From: a virus
Taxonomy: Duplodnaviria; Heunggongvirae; Uroviricota; Caudoviricetes
Length of the DNA stretch: 64,000 nt
Reading direction: 5' to 3' (one strand)
IMG/VR virus record: IMGVR_UViG_2879469214_000003
Location: 1 to 64,000 of that record
In this document: one piece after another, positions 18,014 to 59,935 of the stretch
How the letters are laid out: each line of letters opens with the position of its first letter
How positions within the stretch are numbered: position 1 is the first letter of the stretch
Program-made: the position numbers and the translations under genes
Notes under the pieces: generated by a model
The model's database searches: none
Seen by the model: only the letters and a program-made list of their open reading frames with translations
Told to the model about the DNA's origin: nothing

Positions 18014-18064
18014 AGTTTATCATCTATAATATTGTTTGTCTAGTGTTATTTTAGTGTAATTATT
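18014..18064 (-). promoter_or_regulatory. repeat motif (TAATTACACTAAAATAACAC) plus promoter TAGACA-17-TAAACT
   Basis: Motif overlaps the DHFR stop codon. The predicted TSS falls inside the 5' arm of the downstream terminator hairpin. Confidence 0.45.
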
Positions 18065-25319: not shown

Positions 25320-25370
25320 AATATAATCCATAAATCATTAATTGTAAAGTGTTATTTTAGTGTAATTAAG
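25320..25370 (-). promoter_or_regulatory. repeat motif (CTTAATTACACTAAAATAACAC) plus promoter TTTACA-17-TATATT
   Basis: Motif abuts the -35. About 30 nt upstream of the ATG of 25067..25291. Confidence 0.5.
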
Positions 25371-35603: not shown

Positions 35604-35884
35604 GATTTATCAATCTCCTTTTGTATGAAATTCAAATTTCACTTAGATTTCCTCTAATTCCATCATCGCTAGAATGTAAGCATCGTACTGATCTTCTGAA
35701 AACTCCCATCCAAATATAGCTATACTCCTATTGAATTCATCCAAGCAATCTTTTTTTATCTTGGATTCTAAGCGATCGCTGATTATTTTTAACAATTGAT
35801 TTAGATCGCTATGTTTACTCATTTAACCTTGCTCCTTTTCTTAATGAAATCCAACATTCATTCTAATTATAAAATACTTTAATG

Positions 35885-36170: not shown

Positions 36171-36221
36171 TATTATATTCTATATTTACATCAAGTCAAG
36201 TATTATTTTAGTGTAATTAAA
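36171..36221 (-). promoter_or_regulatory. repeat motif (TTTAATTACACTAAAATAATAC) plus consensus promoter TTGACT-16-TATAAT
   Basis: Best example of the family. Motif directly abuts the -35. Confidence 0.6.
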
Positions 36222-45152: not shown

Positions 45153-45189
45153 GTGACTCTCCTTATGAAAGATTCGTTTTATTGTAAGC

Positions 45190-45718: not shown

Positions 45719-45934
45719 TTATCTGTACCTTGAATCACAGAAGGCTTGATGGACAGCAATTGGTTCCTCTTTGTTGTAGTCCTTGATTTTTTCAGATTCT
45801 TTACCTATGATTATGGGTCTTGTAATAACAGCGTCTCCCACTACCTTTTTTAATACTATAATGTCATTCATCTTTAATTTCCCCTTTCTCCGTGAAAGAC
45901 TAATTTTACTGATTTTCAAGATACTCGCTTCCAA
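45719..45934 (-). CDS. hypothetical protein
   Basis: 71 aa ORF. Confidence 0.3.
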   Translation of the reverse strand: MEASILKISKISLSRRKGKLKMNDIIVLKKVVGDAVITRPIIIGKESEKIKDYNKEEPIAVHQAFCDSRYR

Positions 45935-46200: not shown

Positions 46201-46223
46201 TGTATTATTTTAGTGTAATTAAG
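46201..46223 (-). repeat. repeat motif copy (CTTAATTACACTAAAATAATAC) with no obvious adjacent promoter
   Basis: Exact core copy of the repeat family. The downstream -35/-10 is poor. Confidence 0.4.
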
Positions 46224-48348: not shown

Positions 48349-48846
48349 ATGAAGGACAAGTTAAAGGGTTTGGTCATTGGTATTCTAATTGGATCAACAA
48401 TTACAGGAGCTACAGCTTTTGCAGCTACTACTACACCAATTAAAGCAGTTATCCAGAAAGTCAGTCTTTATGTAGATGGAACTAAGAAGTCAATAACTGA
48501 TGCAATAACGTACAAGAACACTACATATGTACCAGTTAGAAGTATGAGTAATGCAATTGGTGAGAAGGTTTCATTAAAAGGGGATAATCTCTATATTGGT
48601 AAGCAGCCAAAGGCGAAAGTGAGTTTGGACGATGCTTTTGATTTAGTGTACAAAAAAATTAAGAAAGATGTGGATAAATACAGTTTAAGTATGATGGAAG
48701 ATGGAGAAAGCGAGGGTAAATATGTAATTCGTGTATTTGAAGACTTTCCTGATCATATAGCCACATACGGATGGTATTACGTTGATATGAATACCGGAGC
48801 AGTTTATTGGTATGATCTTGCTAATGATAACATGGTAAAACTATAG
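48349..48846 (+). CDS. secreted protein with signal peptide (plus-strand insertion)
   Basis: 165 aa. N-terminal signal peptide (LVIGILIGSTITGATAFAA), then a beta-rich domain. Confidence 0.5.
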   Translation: MKDKLKGLVIGILIGSTITGATAFAATTTPIKAVIQKVSLYVDGTKKSITDAITYKNTTYVPVRSMSNAIGEKVSLKGDNLYIGKQPKAKVSLDDAFDLVYKKIKKDVDKYSLSMMEDGESEGKYVIRVFEDFPDHIATYGWYYVDMNTGAVYWYDLANDNMVKL

Positions 48847-48871
48847 GGTGGATTTCTCCACCCTTTCTTCC
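48846..48871 (+). terminator. rho-independent terminator
   Basis: GGGTGGA-tttc-TCCACCC followed by TTTCTTCC. Confidence 0.45.
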
Positions 48872-48930
48872 TGTAAAACTTGTCTTTCATTAAAATAATG
48901 AATACATATAACAACTTGTCTATGGTATAA

Positions 48931-49425
48931 TTGGTTTTTCAATGCTTCATTATGGAAGGGGTGTTTTCAATGAATCAGCACAATAAAATTATTGACTCTG
49001 ATGAAATTAAAGTTCTTTTTGATGGGAAGTCCTTTATCAAAACTGTTACTTTTGAAGATGACAACATATCAATATTGTATTATGAAACTTATGAGGATAT
49101 GCTGCAAAACTCAGAAAAACTATTGATTACTGAAGAAGAATTCAATATTTTCTTTACTCCTACGACAATTGAAAAAATAATGATTAAAAACACTTCCGAC
49201 ATACTTTTTAAATTTCCATTTGTAAAGAATATTTCAATTACTCTTAAAACTAACAATTATGTTTACTCTGCAAAACTAAATAAGACATTGATATATGAAT
49301 TTACTGGAGTAGATATTGGAAAATTCAATGACTCCAACGAATACAAAACTAATTTTGCTTCAATTCACTTAGATAAAAAAGAAATCAGAAATAAGTTATT
49401 TCAACAAATAGTTAATATTGATTAA
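48931..49425 (+). CDS. hypothetical cytoplasmic protein (second gene of the plus-strand cassette)
   Basis: 164 aa ORF. Same strand as 48349..48846. Confidence 0.4.
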   Translation: MVFQCFIMEGVFSMNQHNKIIDSDEIKVLFDGKSFIKTVTFEDDNISILYYETYEDMLQNSEKLLITEEEFNIFFTPTTIEKIMIKNTSDILFKFPFVKNISITLKTNNYVYSAKLNKTLIYEFTGVDIGKFNDSNEYKTNFASIHLDKKEIRNKLFQQIVNID

Positions 49426-49426
49426 G

Positions 49427-49452
49427 GATGGCGCTTGTCGCCGTCTTTTTTT
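49427..49452 (+). terminator. rho-independent terminator
   Basis: GATGGCG-cttgt-CGCCGTC followed by T7. Confidence 0.6.
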
Positions 49453-50065: not shown

Positions 50066-50092
50066 TCCTCATGAATTGTTCATTTTATCGAA

Positions 50093-50474: not shown

Positions 50475-50879
50475 TTAAAGACTTTTCAAACCCTTTCCAC
50501 AAACTGGACAGTAGTTTATTTTCACTCCATAAAGTGAATGAGGTGCACTTCCTCCAACGATACTGTCTTCTAAGTAATTTACACTGTTTATAAATACGCT
50601 ATAATCACTTAGCTGAGCCTTCATTAAAGGCTCTCTGTCTGTTGAACTTTCACCAGCACAATACTTACAATTTTCTATGTGCTCATCTTTATCTTTAGAC
50701 TGCTTGTCTAATTCATCTGCCACCAGATTAAATTCGTCTGCAATACTTCTTAGCTCCTGAGTGCACCATGTATTATTTGTTAAACTAATGCTGCCGACAA
50801 GTCGAGGCGTAAATCCGATTTGCTTAACTATCTTTCCTTTTATAAATCTACCGTTAACCTTAATCTCAGTACTAAACAT
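50475..50879 (-). CDS. zinc-ribbon hypothetical protein
   Basis: 134 aa. CKYCAG...YCPVCG. Confidence 0.35.
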   Translation of the reverse strand: MFSTEIKVNGRFIKGKIVKQIGFTPRLVGSISLTNNTWCTQELRSIADEFNLVADELDKQSKDKDEHIENCKYCAGESSTDREPLMKAQLSDYSVFINSVNYLEDSIVGGSAPHSLYGVKINYCPVCGKGLKSL

Positions 50880-51459
50880 TCACAGCTTCCTCTCTAGTCA
50901 CCCACTCAAGATAATTGGTATGATTTCGATCCTTCTTGTGTTTGAAGCCCAACTTTCCCAAAACATAATCATAGTAAACTTTGTAATTATAGTTATCTGT
51001 TCTGATATCTTTAGTTAAGTAAGGTGACATATCTGAAGGATGCTTATAGTAATGAACCCTTAAATAATATCTTTCCCCATAACTATCTCCCCCAAGTACT
51101 CTGACACACAATTCGGCATATTTATTTTCTGCTTGAGGAATCCAGACATAGTGATGTGAATGAAAGCTTCCATCTGGATCATTTCTTAATTTCTCAACAT
51201 GATAAAGACATCCATCTCTAACTTCATATGTATATCGCTCATTGTCTGGAGCATAGTTAAAACTCTTTGGAATTTCGTATTGAACACCATTAATATCTGC
51301 TGTATTTAGTTTGCTATTTACTCGACGCTCTTCTTCGTCAATCTTATTCTTTAACTTGTACATCTCTTCGCCAATGCCTCTTTTTGCAGTCTTACTATTC
51401 ACATTCCCGTAATCTATCTTTGCTTTTTCATACTCATTCTTCATTTCTAAGAGTTGCAT
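50872..51459 (-). CDS. hypothetical protein
   Basis: 195 aa ORF. Confidence 0.4.
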   Translation of the reverse strand: MQLLEMKNEYEKAKIDYGNVNSKTAKRGIGEEMYKLKNKIDEEERRVNSKLNTADINGVQYEIPKSFNYAPDNERYTYEVRDGCLYHVEKLRNDPDGSFHSHHYVWIPQAENKYAELCVRVLGGDSYGERYYLRVHYYKHPSDMSPYLTKDIRTDNYNYKVYYDYVLGKLGFKHKKDRNHTNYLEWVTREEAVNV

Positions 51460-51504
51460 TCTCTACCTCCTCATTGTTTGTGAAACACGCATTTTATTTG
51501 AACT

Positions 51505-51533
51505 TTGACTCAATGATGTTCCTATGGTAAAAT
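51505..51533 (+). promoter_or_regulatory. strong sigmaA-type promoter TTGACT-17-TGgTAAAAT (extended -10) on the plus strand
   Basis: Near-consensus hexamers with an extended -10. No plus-strand protein gene downstream. Confidence 0.55.
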
Positions 51534-51539
51534 ATCTCT

Positions 51540-51740
51540 GTCGGTACGAAACCCTAACCCAATATTAGGTATTTGAGTCGTTCTCCAATTTTTTAAATGG
51601 CTTAAATTGTAGTTCCGTCTGTGCAACAAATTTAAGTAGCTTGTATTTAGCAAGATACTCCTATGGTAAGGAAAAGAACTGTAGTGTATGGTGCTACCCA
51701 CACTTTACACACATCCTTTGGATGACAGTTCTTTTTCTGT
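51540..51740 (+). ncRNA. candidate ~200-nt non-coding RNA (orphan promoter to structured terminator)
   Basis: Promoter at 51505-51533. Outer stem AAGAACTGT (51674-51682) pairs with ACAGTTCTT (51725-51733) and encloses two small hairpins (AGTGT..ACACT, CATCCtttGGATG). Followed by TTTTT. Confidence 0.3.
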
Positions 51741-51792
51741 TTTCTACTCAAATTAATCTCAGTAAAATAGACCTTTCATTTGCTGTTGGCTC

Positions 51793-52053
51793 TCAAACTT
51801 TATCTGGTCGATTTCCTACAAAGCAATCTCTAATGCACTTATGTATTTTAATCTCATTGTCCAACTCATTATCATCCCACTGATTTTGATATATACTTTT
51901 CCAGCCCACAAACCATTTACATCTCTCGAAAATCTTTAACTTGTAAACAGTTTTATAATAAGTCACTCCACCAGCTCTTAGTGTATCTACACGTTGTTCT
52001 TTTACTTCCAATCTGTATTTTTTCTCATCTTCATTCCAATACTTTTTATACAT
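51793..52053 (-). CDS. hypothetical protein
   Basis: 86 aa ORF. Confidence 0.35.
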   Translation of the reverse strand: MYKKYWNEDEKKYRLEVKEQRVDTLRAGGVTYYKTVYKLKIFERCKWFVGWKSIYQNQWDDNELDNEIKIHKCIRDCFVGNRPDKV

Positions 52054-53228: not shown

Positions 53229-53259
53229 AATTCTTTCTCCTCCTTATGAAACGTGCCTT

Positions 53260-53574
53260 TTACTTAGTAGTCTTACTTTTCTTGAATGGTTCAATAAATA
53301 ACCAGCGAAAACCTGTGTATAAGATTTTCAAGAGGTTCCATGAGGCAAAGACTGCCAACCCAATAAGAGCTAATAATATAATCCACATCACAGTCGCTCT
53401 TAGTTGATCTGGCATGACCCAGTTATCTTGTAGCCACCATATCCCATTCATCAATAACAAAACTAATCCCCATAATGCTGATATGAGCCCCGCGAACAAT
53501 AATGTCTTTTTCATTCTTTTAAAAAACTCTCTCAACTTATACGAATCCTCCTCAACTTCATGGTCTCTATGCAT
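53260..53574 (-). CDS. membrane protein (2-3 TM)
   Basis: 104 aa with hydrophobic helices. Confidence 0.4.
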   Translation of the reverse strand: MHRDHEVEEDSYKLREFFKRMKKTLLFAGLISALWGLVLLLMNGIWWLQDNWVMPDQLRATVMWIILLALIGLAVFASWNLLKILYTGFRWLFIEPFKKSKTTK

Positions 53575-54256: not shown

Positions 54257-54310
54257 CTATGTACCACGTCCCCTCATAAGAAAAACGGCGATATCTTTCC
54301 CGTTAAAGGA

Positions 54311-54360
54311 ATTATATCACCGTTTTATATGTATGTACAGTTTTATTTTAGTGTAATTAA
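54311..54360 (-). promoter_or_regulatory. repeat motif (TTAATTACACTAAAATAAAAC) plus promoter TGTACA-17-TATAAT
   Basis: Motif overlaps the stop of 54357..54869 and abuts the -35. Confidence 0.55.
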
Positions 54361-59880: not shown

Positions 59881-59935
59881 ATATTTTCTCCATTCAATAA
59901 TTTTAATGTTTGTGAAATTGCGATTTTACATAAAC

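What the first reader, a model, noticed from the sequence alone, without database searches (positions are those of the whole stretch)
51505..51740. Orphan near-consensus promoter and structured terminator inside a minus-strand operon: candidate ~200-nt phage sRNA
TTGACT-17-TGgTAAAAT at 51505-51533 is the best sigmaA promoter in the window, yet it faces no protein-coding gene. About 150 nt downstream a 9-bp stem (AAGAACTGT / ACAGTTCTT) encloses two smaller hairpins and is followed by TTTTT. The unit sits in a 330-bp gap between two minus-strand genes. Its transcription would collide with the operon and could produce a regulatory RNA. Type I toxin-antitoxin RNAs and sRNAs are common in SPbeta-like prophages. 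The overlapping 80-aa plus-strand ORF (51641..51883) runs through the terminator and is probably not coding.
Basis: seen in the sequence. Interest (0 to 1): 0.55.

Follow-up and report, generated by a model that had tools for sequence, protein, structure and literature searches.

The report
Orphan antisense small-RNA cassette in prophage
A 260-bp non-coding insert in a large Paenibacillus prophage carries a strong bacterial promoter and the most stably folded RNA structure in the 64-kb window, so it is probably a ~200-nt small RNA gene, but nothing like it was found anywhere else and its expression and target are untested.

Summary
TTGACT-17-TAAAAT with a TATG motif sits at 51505-51533 (+). 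A three-way-junction stem-loop at 51669-51738 runs into a U-rich tail. Both lie in the only large gap (333 bp) of a tightly packed minus-strand operon.

Taken alone, the promoter is not beyond chance. It ties for best of three such sites, and about 2.1 are expected per window. The junction, however, is the third most stable 85-nt segment of 25,566 tested, with z = -5.3. It is more stable on the + strand than on the - strand (-30 against -24.4 kcal/mol). It lies 130 nt downstream of the promoter on the same strand.

Thirteen related Paenibacillus prophage loci lack this sequence. In the same slot they carry one to three small protein genes, bounded by two conserved junction motifs. The unit is therefore a discrete 260-bp cassette.

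I found no Rfam family, credible ORF, toxin gene or homologue in any collection searched. That means there is no conservation or covariation evidence.

Best reading: a singleton, moron-like small RNA gene transcribed against the operon. The type I toxin-antitoxin idea is not supported. The host is Paenibacillus xylanexedens, not Bacillus.

The parts
51500..51760 (+). Unique non-coding cassette (about 260 bp). It is the only part of the gap with no counterpart in related prophages.
   Evidence: blastn and alignment against 13 related loci. Homology stops at about 51499 on one side and about 51760 on the other.
51505..51533 (+). SigmaA-type promoter: -35 TTGACT, 17-nt spacer, TATG (-16 / extended -10) and -10 TAAAAT. 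The predicted start is G at about 51540.
   Evidence: It ties for the top 3 of the window, with about 0.011 expected per 333 bp.
51540..51663 (+). Predicted 5' domain of the RNA. It has three small hairpins (about 51553-51569, 51571-51607 and 51635-51659) and single-stranded stretches that include CUCC/CUCCU.
   Evidence: Fold. This domain alone is not significantly structured (z = -1.58).
51669..51738 (+). Three-way junction: a 14-bp closing stem that encloses a 9-bp hairpin (7-nt loop CUACCCA) and a 5-bp hairpin (loop UUU).
   Evidence: One search gives -30 kcal/mol and z = -5.26 on +, against -24.4 and z = -3.12 on -. It ranks 3rd of 25,566 windows. Two G-U pairs favour the + strand.
51732..51745 (+). 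U-rich tail UUUUUCUGUUUUCU. Its first part forms the 3' arm of the closing stem. This is the presumed intrinsic termination zone.
   Evidence: Sequence. The terminator scan flags only the inner hairpin at 51712-51724, so the terminator is non-canonical (branched).
51515..51530 (+). Direct repeat copy 1, GATGTTCCTATGGTAA. It overlaps the promoter spacer and -10.
   Evidence: 14 of 16 identical to copy 2, 139 bp apart. Meaning unknown.
51654..51669 (+). Direct repeat copy 2, GATACTCCTATGGTAA. It lies immediately 5' of the three-way junction and contains CUCCU.
   Evidence: a weak secondary covariance-model hit is caused by this repeat.
51481..51496 (-). Conserved junction motif A, TAAAATGCGTGTTTCA. 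It lies 21 nt upstream of the ATG of the 195-aa gene and marks one edge of the variable slot.
   Evidence: The exact 12-mer AAATGCGTGTTT occurs once, always on the operon strand, in 20 of the 25 loci held at that point, and once in the window.
51763..51779 (-). Conserved junction motif B, ATGAAAGGTCTATTTTA. It lies just downstream of the stop of the 86-aa gene and marks the other edge of the slot. In L002 and L012 it precedes the SD of the next small gene, which is missing here.
   Evidence: Alignment A2. The exact 12-mer is present in L002, L011, L012, L023, L024 and L025.
50872..51459 (-). Downstream operon gene (195 aa, no known family).
51793..52053 (-). Upstream operon gene (86 aa, no known family).

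Best explanation
The gap holds an autonomous, horizontally acquired non-coding transcription unit, in effect an sRNA 'moron'. Host sigmaA RNA polymerase would start at about 51540 on the + strand. It would make an RNA of about 205 nt that ends in the U-tract at 51732-51745.

The 3' third of the RNA is a very stable three-way junction. I infer that it acts as the terminator and as a protective 3' end. The 5' two-thirds is loosely structured and would carry the regulatory sequence.

The unit points against the early operon that starts near 54339. The RNA is therefore perfectly complementary to any read-through operon transcript across the 86-aa / 195-aa intercistronic region. Its promoter also fires head-on into that operon.

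The mechanism I commit to has three parts:
- Expression from the prophage is independent of the phage early promoters, because the promoter lacks the 18-bp element found beside those promoters.
- The RNA acts by base pairing.
- The one guaranteed partner is the operon's own intercistronic RNA (cis-antisense, as with lambda OOP). Trans targets in the host or phage are possible through the exposed CUCC/CCC stretches.

Shown: the signals, the structure, the strand asymmetry, the absence of coding capacity and the cassette nature. Inferred: transcription, the end points, the lysogenic expression and the mode of action.
For: - Promoter with 10 of 12 hexamer matches, 17-nt spacing and TATG.
- The structure 130 nt downstream on the same strand has z = -5.26 and ranks 3rd of 25,566 windows. 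It is the only one of the top three that stands out after composition control.
- A rough joint chance is below 1e-4: 0.011 for the promoter times about 0.007 for one of the three most stable loci falling within 300 nt downstream on the same strand.
- The + strand fold is 5.6 kcal/mol more stable than the - strand fold, owing to G-U pairs, and the + strand U-tract is longer.
- The edges of the unique cassette (about 51500 and 51760) enclose the promoter-to-terminator unit almost exactly.
- No ORF has both an ATG and an SD. The 59-aa minus-strand ORF has no homologue among 1.84 billion protein representatives.
- Ten other intergenic gaps in five related loci show no comparable antisense promoter-plus-structure pair.
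- Two opposite-strand protein genes with their own terminators lie 2-3 kb away (48349-49425), so opposite-strand inserts are tolerated in this region.
Against: - No homologue was found, so there is no conservation or covariation support.
- No Rfam family matches.
- Promoter-like sites of this quality occur at the chance rate across the window.
- The terminator is branched and AU-rich at its base, which is not the canonical GC hairpin.
- The 5' domain is not significantly structured (z = -1.58).
- No extended complementarity to any other part of the 64-kb window was found (12 nt at most, chance level).
- There are no expression data.
Confidence: 0.5

Rival explanations
1. Non-functional filler. 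The cassette is debris left by illegitimate or junction-mediated recombination that deleted the small ORFs normally found in this slot. The promoter-like site and the hairpins are accidental.
For: - The cassette is a singleton with no relatives.
- Motif B is left orphaned, followed by a 6-codon stub (MKGLFY*) of the reading frame that is open at this point in L012. This shows that a replacement or deletion occurred here.
- Promoter-like sites are at the chance rate in this AT-rich genome.
Against: - The best-class promoter and the most significant structure in 64 kb coincide on the same strand at sRNA-like spacing.
- The cassette has no similarity to the slot genes of relatives, even when translated, so it is not simply a decayed copy of them.
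Confidence: 0.2
2. The element works for the operon strand. The three-way junction would be a terminator, attenuator or processing site that separates the 86-aa gene from the 195-aa gene. The rest of the gap would be a 5' leader for the 195-aa gene. The + strand promoter would be incidental.
For: - The junction also folds on the - strand (-24.4 kcal/mol, z = -3.12) and is followed there by UUUUCCUU.
- An A-tract / U-tract arrangement is typical of bidirectional terminators (general knowledge).
- Motif A, directly upstream of the 195-aa gene, belongs to a repeated motif family placed just before ribosome-binding sites.
Against: - The fold is less stable and the U-tract shorter on the - strand.
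- The whole gap on the - strand is not significantly structured (z = -1.27).
- No sigmaA-like promoter was found on the - strand in the gap.
- Relatives express the same downstream gene without any such element.
Confidence: 0.15
3. DNA-level or mobile element: a miniature inverted-repeat element, or a single-strand initiation or origin-type hairpin, rather than an RNA gene.
For: - Short imperfect inverted repeats lie at the cassette edges (51493-51501 / 51748-51756, 8 of 9).
- The size and strong secondary structure resemble those of MITEs.
- The region lies among replication and recombination genes such as the DprA-like and Y-family polymerase genes.
Against: - No second copy exists in the window or in any related locus.
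- No protein-database shadow of its ORF was found, as multi-copy repeats often leave.
- The inverted repeats are only 9 nt long, and I did not look for a target-site duplication.
- The + / - asymmetry from G-U pairs points to RNA rather than DNA.
Confidence: 0.07
4. Type I toxin-antitoxin RNA, or a small-protein gene.
For: By my recollection, type I toxin-antitoxin systems occur in SPbeta, with antitoxin RNAs of broadly this size. One of them (spbT/yonT) is mentioned in PMC10516654.
Against: - No ORF in 51440-51830 on either strand combines a start codon, an SD and a hydrophobic helix. The best hydrophobic candidate is an 18-aa GTG ORF buried in the junction.
- There is no convergent toxin mRNA. 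The neighbouring 86-aa gene is conserved in relatives that lack the RNA.
Confidence: 0.04

Closest known systems
Lambda OOP RNA (and P22 sar): short antisense RNAs inside early operons of temperate phages
   Same: A short RNA with its own host-type promoter and intrinsic terminator, transcribed against an early operon of a temperate phage and so complementary to the operon transcript (from my own knowledge of the lambda literature).
   Different: OOP is 77 nt and overlaps the 3' end of the cII coding sequence. The present unit is about 205 nt and overlaps only intercistronic RNA. It shares no sequence or structural similarity with OOP. Its 3' end is a three-way junction rather than a simple hairpin. 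Expression is unproven.
Phage morons, including prophage sRNA genes such as DicF, IpeX and the EHEC anti-sRNAs AgvB/AsxR
   Same: An independent transcription unit inserted between genes of a phage operon and absent from close relatives. This matches the definition in PMC3594210. PMC4104026 reports phage-encoded anti-sRNAs in pathogenic E. coli.
   Different: Those examples are in enterobacterial lambdoid prophages and have known Hfq-dependent targets. This one is in a large prophage of a Gram-positive host (Paenibacillus), has no known target and is a singleton.
SPbeta type I antitoxin RNAs (SR4 for bsrG, SR6 for yonT/spbT)
   Same: A small RNA of broadly this size in a large temperate phage of a Firmicute, on the strand opposite to its neighbours.
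   Different: No toxin ORF, no 3'-overlapping toxin mRNA and no Rfam hit. Membership is rejected.
AimX non-coding RNA of the arbitrium system
   Same: A non-coding RNA of SPbeta-type phages that bears on the lysis-lysogeny decision (PMC10516654).
   Different: From my knowledge, AimX lies directly downstream of aimR-aimP and depends on AimR. No aimR/aimP-like genes flank this unit: the neighbours are hypothetical proteins of 86 and 195 aa, and Pfam found nothing relevant among the nearby ORFs I scanned.

Membership tests
SigmaA (sigma-70 type) promoter | -35 and -10 hexamers close to TTGACA/TATAAT, a 17 +/- 1 nt spacer and an optional TG/TRTG at -16 | tested here: met
   TTGACT-17-TAAAAT with TATG; 10 of 12 matches plus TG. 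This is a match to a consensus only; activity was not tested.
Intrinsic (Rho-independent) terminator | A stable GC-rich hairpin immediately followed by a U-tract | tested here: inconclusive
   A very stable structure (-30 kcal/mol) runs into UUUUUCUGUUUUCU. However, it is a branched three-way junction with an AU-rich closing stem. The consensus scan flags only the inner 5-bp hairpin.
Phage moron | Own promoter and terminator, inserted between two genes of a phage operon, and absent from related phages | tested here: met
   The unit lies between conserved junction motifs. All 13 related loci carry other content in that slot.
Phage moron | Expressed from the repressed prophage | not testable with these tools
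   Indirect only: the promoter lacks the 18-bp element TTAATTACACTAAAATAA that accompanies the strong operon-strand promoters.
Type I toxin-antitoxin system | A small hydrophobic toxin ORF whose mRNA overlaps, or is complementary to, the RNA | tested here: not met
   A systematic scan of ORFs of 10 aa or more on both strands of 51440-51830 found none with a start codon, an SD and a transmembrane-like segment.
Any curated RNA family (Rfam 15) | A covariance-model score at or above the family's gathering threshold | tested here: not met
   No hit in the whole window at gathering thresholds. In the gap at E <= 10, only chance-level matches to eukaryotic miRNA and lncRNA models appear.
Conserved bacterial/phage sRNA | Homologues in related genomes with conserved promoter and terminator and compensatory base changes | tested here: not met
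   Identical copies occur only in the same strain (L013/L014). Nothing was found in IMG/VR, JGI metagenomes, INPHARED, PLSDB or the related loci. Other Paenibacillus genomes could not be searched by DNA.
Miniature inverted-repeat transposable element | Terminal inverted repeats, a target-site duplication and multiple genomic copies | tested here: inconclusive
   There is only a 9-nt, 8-of-9 inverted repeat at the edges. No other copy was found in the sequence available. I did not look for a target-site duplication, and the host genome was not searchable.

The most novel reading that the evidence does not exclude
The cassette may be an RNA-based insulator or switch acquired by cassette exchange at conserved boundary motifs. 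In the lysogen, a constitutively made antisense RNA and its head-on transcription, together with the bidirectional three-way-junction terminator, would cut the early operon in two. This would silence the downstream block (the 195-aa gene through the DprA-like gene) independently of the phage repressor. The RNA would be a new family with no relatives.
Probability: 0.15. Interest if true: 0.5.

Novelty: new member of a known kind. Interest (0 to 1): 0.33.

Why it matters
If the RNA is made, it would be a regulatory RNA in a group of large Paenibacillus prophages for which, to my knowledge, none has been described. It would also show a non-coding unit replacing protein-coding cassettes in a hypervariable slot bounded by conserved junction motifs, which bears on how phage mosaicism proceeds. 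The practical value is modest. It is a singleton candidate with no target, and one Northern blot or RNA-seq run would test it.

Tried and rejected
- Rfam: the whole window at gathering thresholds, and the gap at E <= 10, gave nothing meaningful.
- tRNA/tmRNA scan: none.
- DNA similarity: megablast and sensitive blastn against INPHARED phages, and blastn against PLSDB plasmids, found no match.
- tblastn of both flanking proteins against phages: no match.
- Exact and gapped k-mer scans with six different patterns over IMG/VR, and two patterns over JGI metagenomes, returned either nothing or hits unrelated to the cassette.
- Exact-protein look-ups of three neighbouring genes returned only the same strain.
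- A single-sequence covariance model of the three-way junction, searched over the window and 17 related loci, matched only itself.
- Pseudogene test: peptides from the slot of five relatives, run by tblastn against the gap, matched only the 7-aa stub at motif B.
- The 59-aa minus-strand ORF against 1.84 billion protein representatives gave one repetitive, irrelevant hit at E = 4e-4.
- A search for complementarity between the RNA and the rest of the window found 12 nt at most, at chance level.
- Ideas considered and dropped for lack of any defining feature:
  - invertible promoter segment (after inversion the terminator would still block);
  - tRNA-like or anticodon-loop mimic (position 37 is a pyrimidine and ARAGORN is negative);
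  - AimX (no aimR/aimP neighbours);
  - phi29-type pRNA (no Rfam hit).
- The SPBRE sequence is not given in the text of PMC10516654, so the repeated elements here could not be compared with it.

Full report
**1. What is in the sequence**

The gap 51460-51792 (333 bp) separates two minus-strand genes, of 195 aa (50872-51459) and 86 aa (51793-52053). It is the only sizeable gap in a run of about 14 tightly packed small minus-strand genes. That run extends from a strong promoter near 54339 down to 49451.

On the + strand the gap contains:
- TTGACT (51505-51510), a 17-nt spacer, TATG (51523-51526) and TAAAAT (51528-51533);
- a 14-bp stem starting 130 nt after the predicted start (G, about 51540), with arms at 51669-51682 and 51725-51738;
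- two hairpins enclosed by that stem, followed by UUUUUCUGUUUUCU ending at 51745.

**2. Is it more than chance?**

The promoter alone is not. With a score that counts hexamer matches, TG and 17-nt spacing, it ties with two other sites for best in the window. Markov-1 random sequences of the same composition give 2.1 such sites per 64 kb on both strands, or about 0.011 per 333 bp. The tool's own scan found promoter-like sites at the shuffle rate.

The structure is. The 85-nt segment 51664-51748 folds at -30 kcal/mol, with z = -5.26 and 0 of 200 shuffles as stable. Of 25,566 85-nt windows on both strands of the whole window, it ranks third. The two windows above it are GC-rich coding segments with unremarkable z-scores of -1.55 and -1.09.

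The same segment on the - strand reaches only -24.4 kcal/mol (z = -3.12), because two pairs are G-U on the + strand. The longer U-tract is also on the + strand.

So a best-class promoter and the most significant structure of the window lie on the same strand at sRNA-like spacing, within 260 bp. A rough joint chance is below 1e-4 (inference).

**3. Coding capacity**

Six-frame translation shows only short, broken frames. A scan of all ORFs of 10 aa or more in 51440-51830 found none that combines an ATG, a Shine-Dalgarno sequence and a plausible peptide. None has a transmembrane-like segment of the kind seen in type I toxins.

The longest minus-strand ORF (59 aa, GTG start) has no homologue among 1.84 billion protein representatives. 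The single hit, at E = 4e-4, is to a repetitive 814-aa protein.

The 80-aa + strand ORF has a TTG start and no SD. Its C-terminal part is the antisense shadow of the 86-aa gene, and the same shadow frame is open in relatives L011 and L012. Two independent annotations call no gene in the gap.

**4. Context and relatives**

The window matches exactly a chromosomal contig of Paenibacillus xylanexedens (GCA_003833245.1) and an assembly of run SRR8443429.

Gene content indicates a large temperate siphovirus: Pol III alpha, ribonucleotide reductase, a Y-family polymerase, a DprA-like protein, Sipho_Gp157 and a D12 methyltransferase. The nearest deposited phages are Bacillus phages PK-3, FADO and PJN02, at 57% identity in the polymerase.

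I collected 13 loci that carry the 195-aa gene at 78-88% identity or the 86-aa gene at 52-57% identity:
- L001 and L002 from IMG/VR;
- L010-L012 from Paenibacillus genomes;
- L021-L025 through cluster members;
- the more distant L003-L009, which carry the 86-aa gene at 52-57% identity.

None contains the gap sequence. The ten loci with the 195-aa gene carry one to three small protein genes in the operon orientation in that slot, and the gene just upstream of the 195-aa gene ends within 40 nt of its start.

Only two short pieces of the gap are conserved:
- Motif A, TAAAATGCGTGTTTCA (51481-51496, operon strand). It is single-copy and present in 20 of the 25 loci held at that point.
- Motif B, ATGAAAGGTCTATTTTA (51763-51779, operon strand). 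It lies directly after the 86-aa gene's stop.

In L012 and L002, motif B is followed by the SD and start of the next gene. In the window it is followed by a six-codon stub and then by unrelated sequence.

The unique DNA is therefore a cassette of about 260 bp (about 51500-51760). Its limits enclose the promoter-to-terminator unit almost exactly. Ten other intergenic gaps in five relatives show no comparable antisense promoter-plus-structure pair.

**5. Search for homologues**

Nothing was found in any of these searches:
- Rfam;
- INPHARED phages, in near and distant modes;
- PLSDB plasmids;
- six pattern scans of IMG/VR and two of the JGI metagenomes, whose hits were all unrelated to the cassette;
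- a covariance model of the three-way junction run over the window and 17 related loci.

The cassette is a singleton in the data I could reach. Function can therefore be neither supported nor refuted by conservation or covariation.

**6. Interpretation**

The most economical reading is a moron-like, non-coding transcription unit. A sigmaA promoter would drive an RNA of about 205 nt whose 3' three-way junction both terminates and stabilises it. The unit appears to have been inserted by cassette replacement between two conserved junction motifs.

Because it points against the operon, the RNA is complementary to any read-through operon transcript over 51540-51745, and its transcription is head-on to the operon. 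The architecture resembles lambda OOP. The concept matches the moron definition in PMC3594210 and the prophage sRNA genes reported in PMC4104026.

The strong operon-strand promoters of this phage are accompanied by an 18-bp element, TTAATTACACTAAAATAA. It gives 9 matches against 0.43 expected, with exact copies at 25352, 36203, 46205 and 54343. The candidate promoter has none. I therefore infer that it is controlled differently, and possibly active in the lysogen.

No extended complementarity to other parts of the window was found. The exposed CUCC/CUCCU/CCC stretches could in principle pair with ribosome-binding sites, as I recall for some Gram-positive sRNAs, but they are too short to be evidence.

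I put the probability that a discrete + strand RNA is made at about 0.5.

**7. Rivals**

- Recombination debris with accidental signals (0.2).
- An operon-strand terminator, insulator or leader with an incidental + strand promoter (0.15). The junction does fold on the - strand and is followed there by UUUUCC.
- A DNA-level or mobile element (0.07).
- A type I toxin-antitoxin RNA or small-protein gene (0.04), for which the defining features were looked for and not found.

**8. Verdict**

The toxin-antitoxin lead is rejected, and the host and phage group are corrected. This is a new, singleton candidate of a known kind and of moderate-to-low interest. It can be tested with one transcript-mapping experiment.

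Noticed in passing
window 54343-54360, 46205-46222, 36203-36220 and 25352-25369 (exact copies); 18046-18063 (1 mismatch); also 10313, 7810, 42223, 13905: An 18-bp element, TTAATTACACTAAAATAA, gives 9 matches at <=3 mismatches against 0.43 expected, and 8 of the 9 lie on the minus strand. Six copies sit beside or inside the highest-scoring minus-strand sigmaA-like promoters (54339, 36199, 46227, 25348, 18042, 10309). It may be this phage's counterpart of the SPbeta repeated element (the repressor operator), or a phage-specific promoter element.
   Followed up: partly
window, e.g. 51481-51496(-), 53247-53262(-), 50072-50087(-), 45166-45181(-), 45893-45908(-), 59913-59928(-), 35626-35641: A dyad-like motif, TAAAAT-N5-TTTCA (T[A/G]AAA-N6-TTT[C/T]A), is four-fold over-represented: 37 matches against 9.0 +/- 3.0 expected. 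On the operon strand it usually lies 0-25 nt upstream of the Shine-Dalgarno sequence of a gene and often overlaps the previous stop codon. Junction motifs A and B belong to this family. It could be a boundary sequence for module exchange, an operator or an RNA element.
   Followed up: partly
window 51480-51496 and loci L002-L025 (e.g. L003 5135-5146, L024 2206-2217): The exact 12-mer AAATGCGTGTTT is single-copy and strand-specific in 20 of the 25 loci held at that point, including the more distant loci L003-L009. It sits in different intergenic junctions of an otherwise hypervariable region. Such strict conservation of the motif's central bases suggests a specific site of unknown function.
   Followed up: partly
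window 48349-49425 (+), with terminator-like hairpins at 48845-48864 and 49424-49448: Two plus-strand genes (165 and 164 aa) are embedded among minus-strand operons and bracketed by strong terminator-like hairpins. One has a weak hit to the copper amine oxidase N-terminal domain (bit score exactly at Pfam's cut-off). They look like protein-coding morons.
   Followed up: no
window 54290-54340 (-): The strong operon promoter TGTACA-17-TGaTATAAT is overlapped and followed by a hairpin (AACGGTGATAT...ATATCGCCGTT) plus a T-run. This may be the terminator of the upstream Sipho_Gp157 gene or an attenuator. The equivalent region of relative L023 (175-472) also pairs a promoter with a -30.7 kcal/mol structure.
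   Followed up: no
L011 2858-3150: In Paenibacillus sp. QZ-Y1, no intact ORF for the 86-aa gene homologue was listed where it is expected. Only its antisense shadow frame is open, so the gene may be frameshifted or decayed.
   Followed up: no
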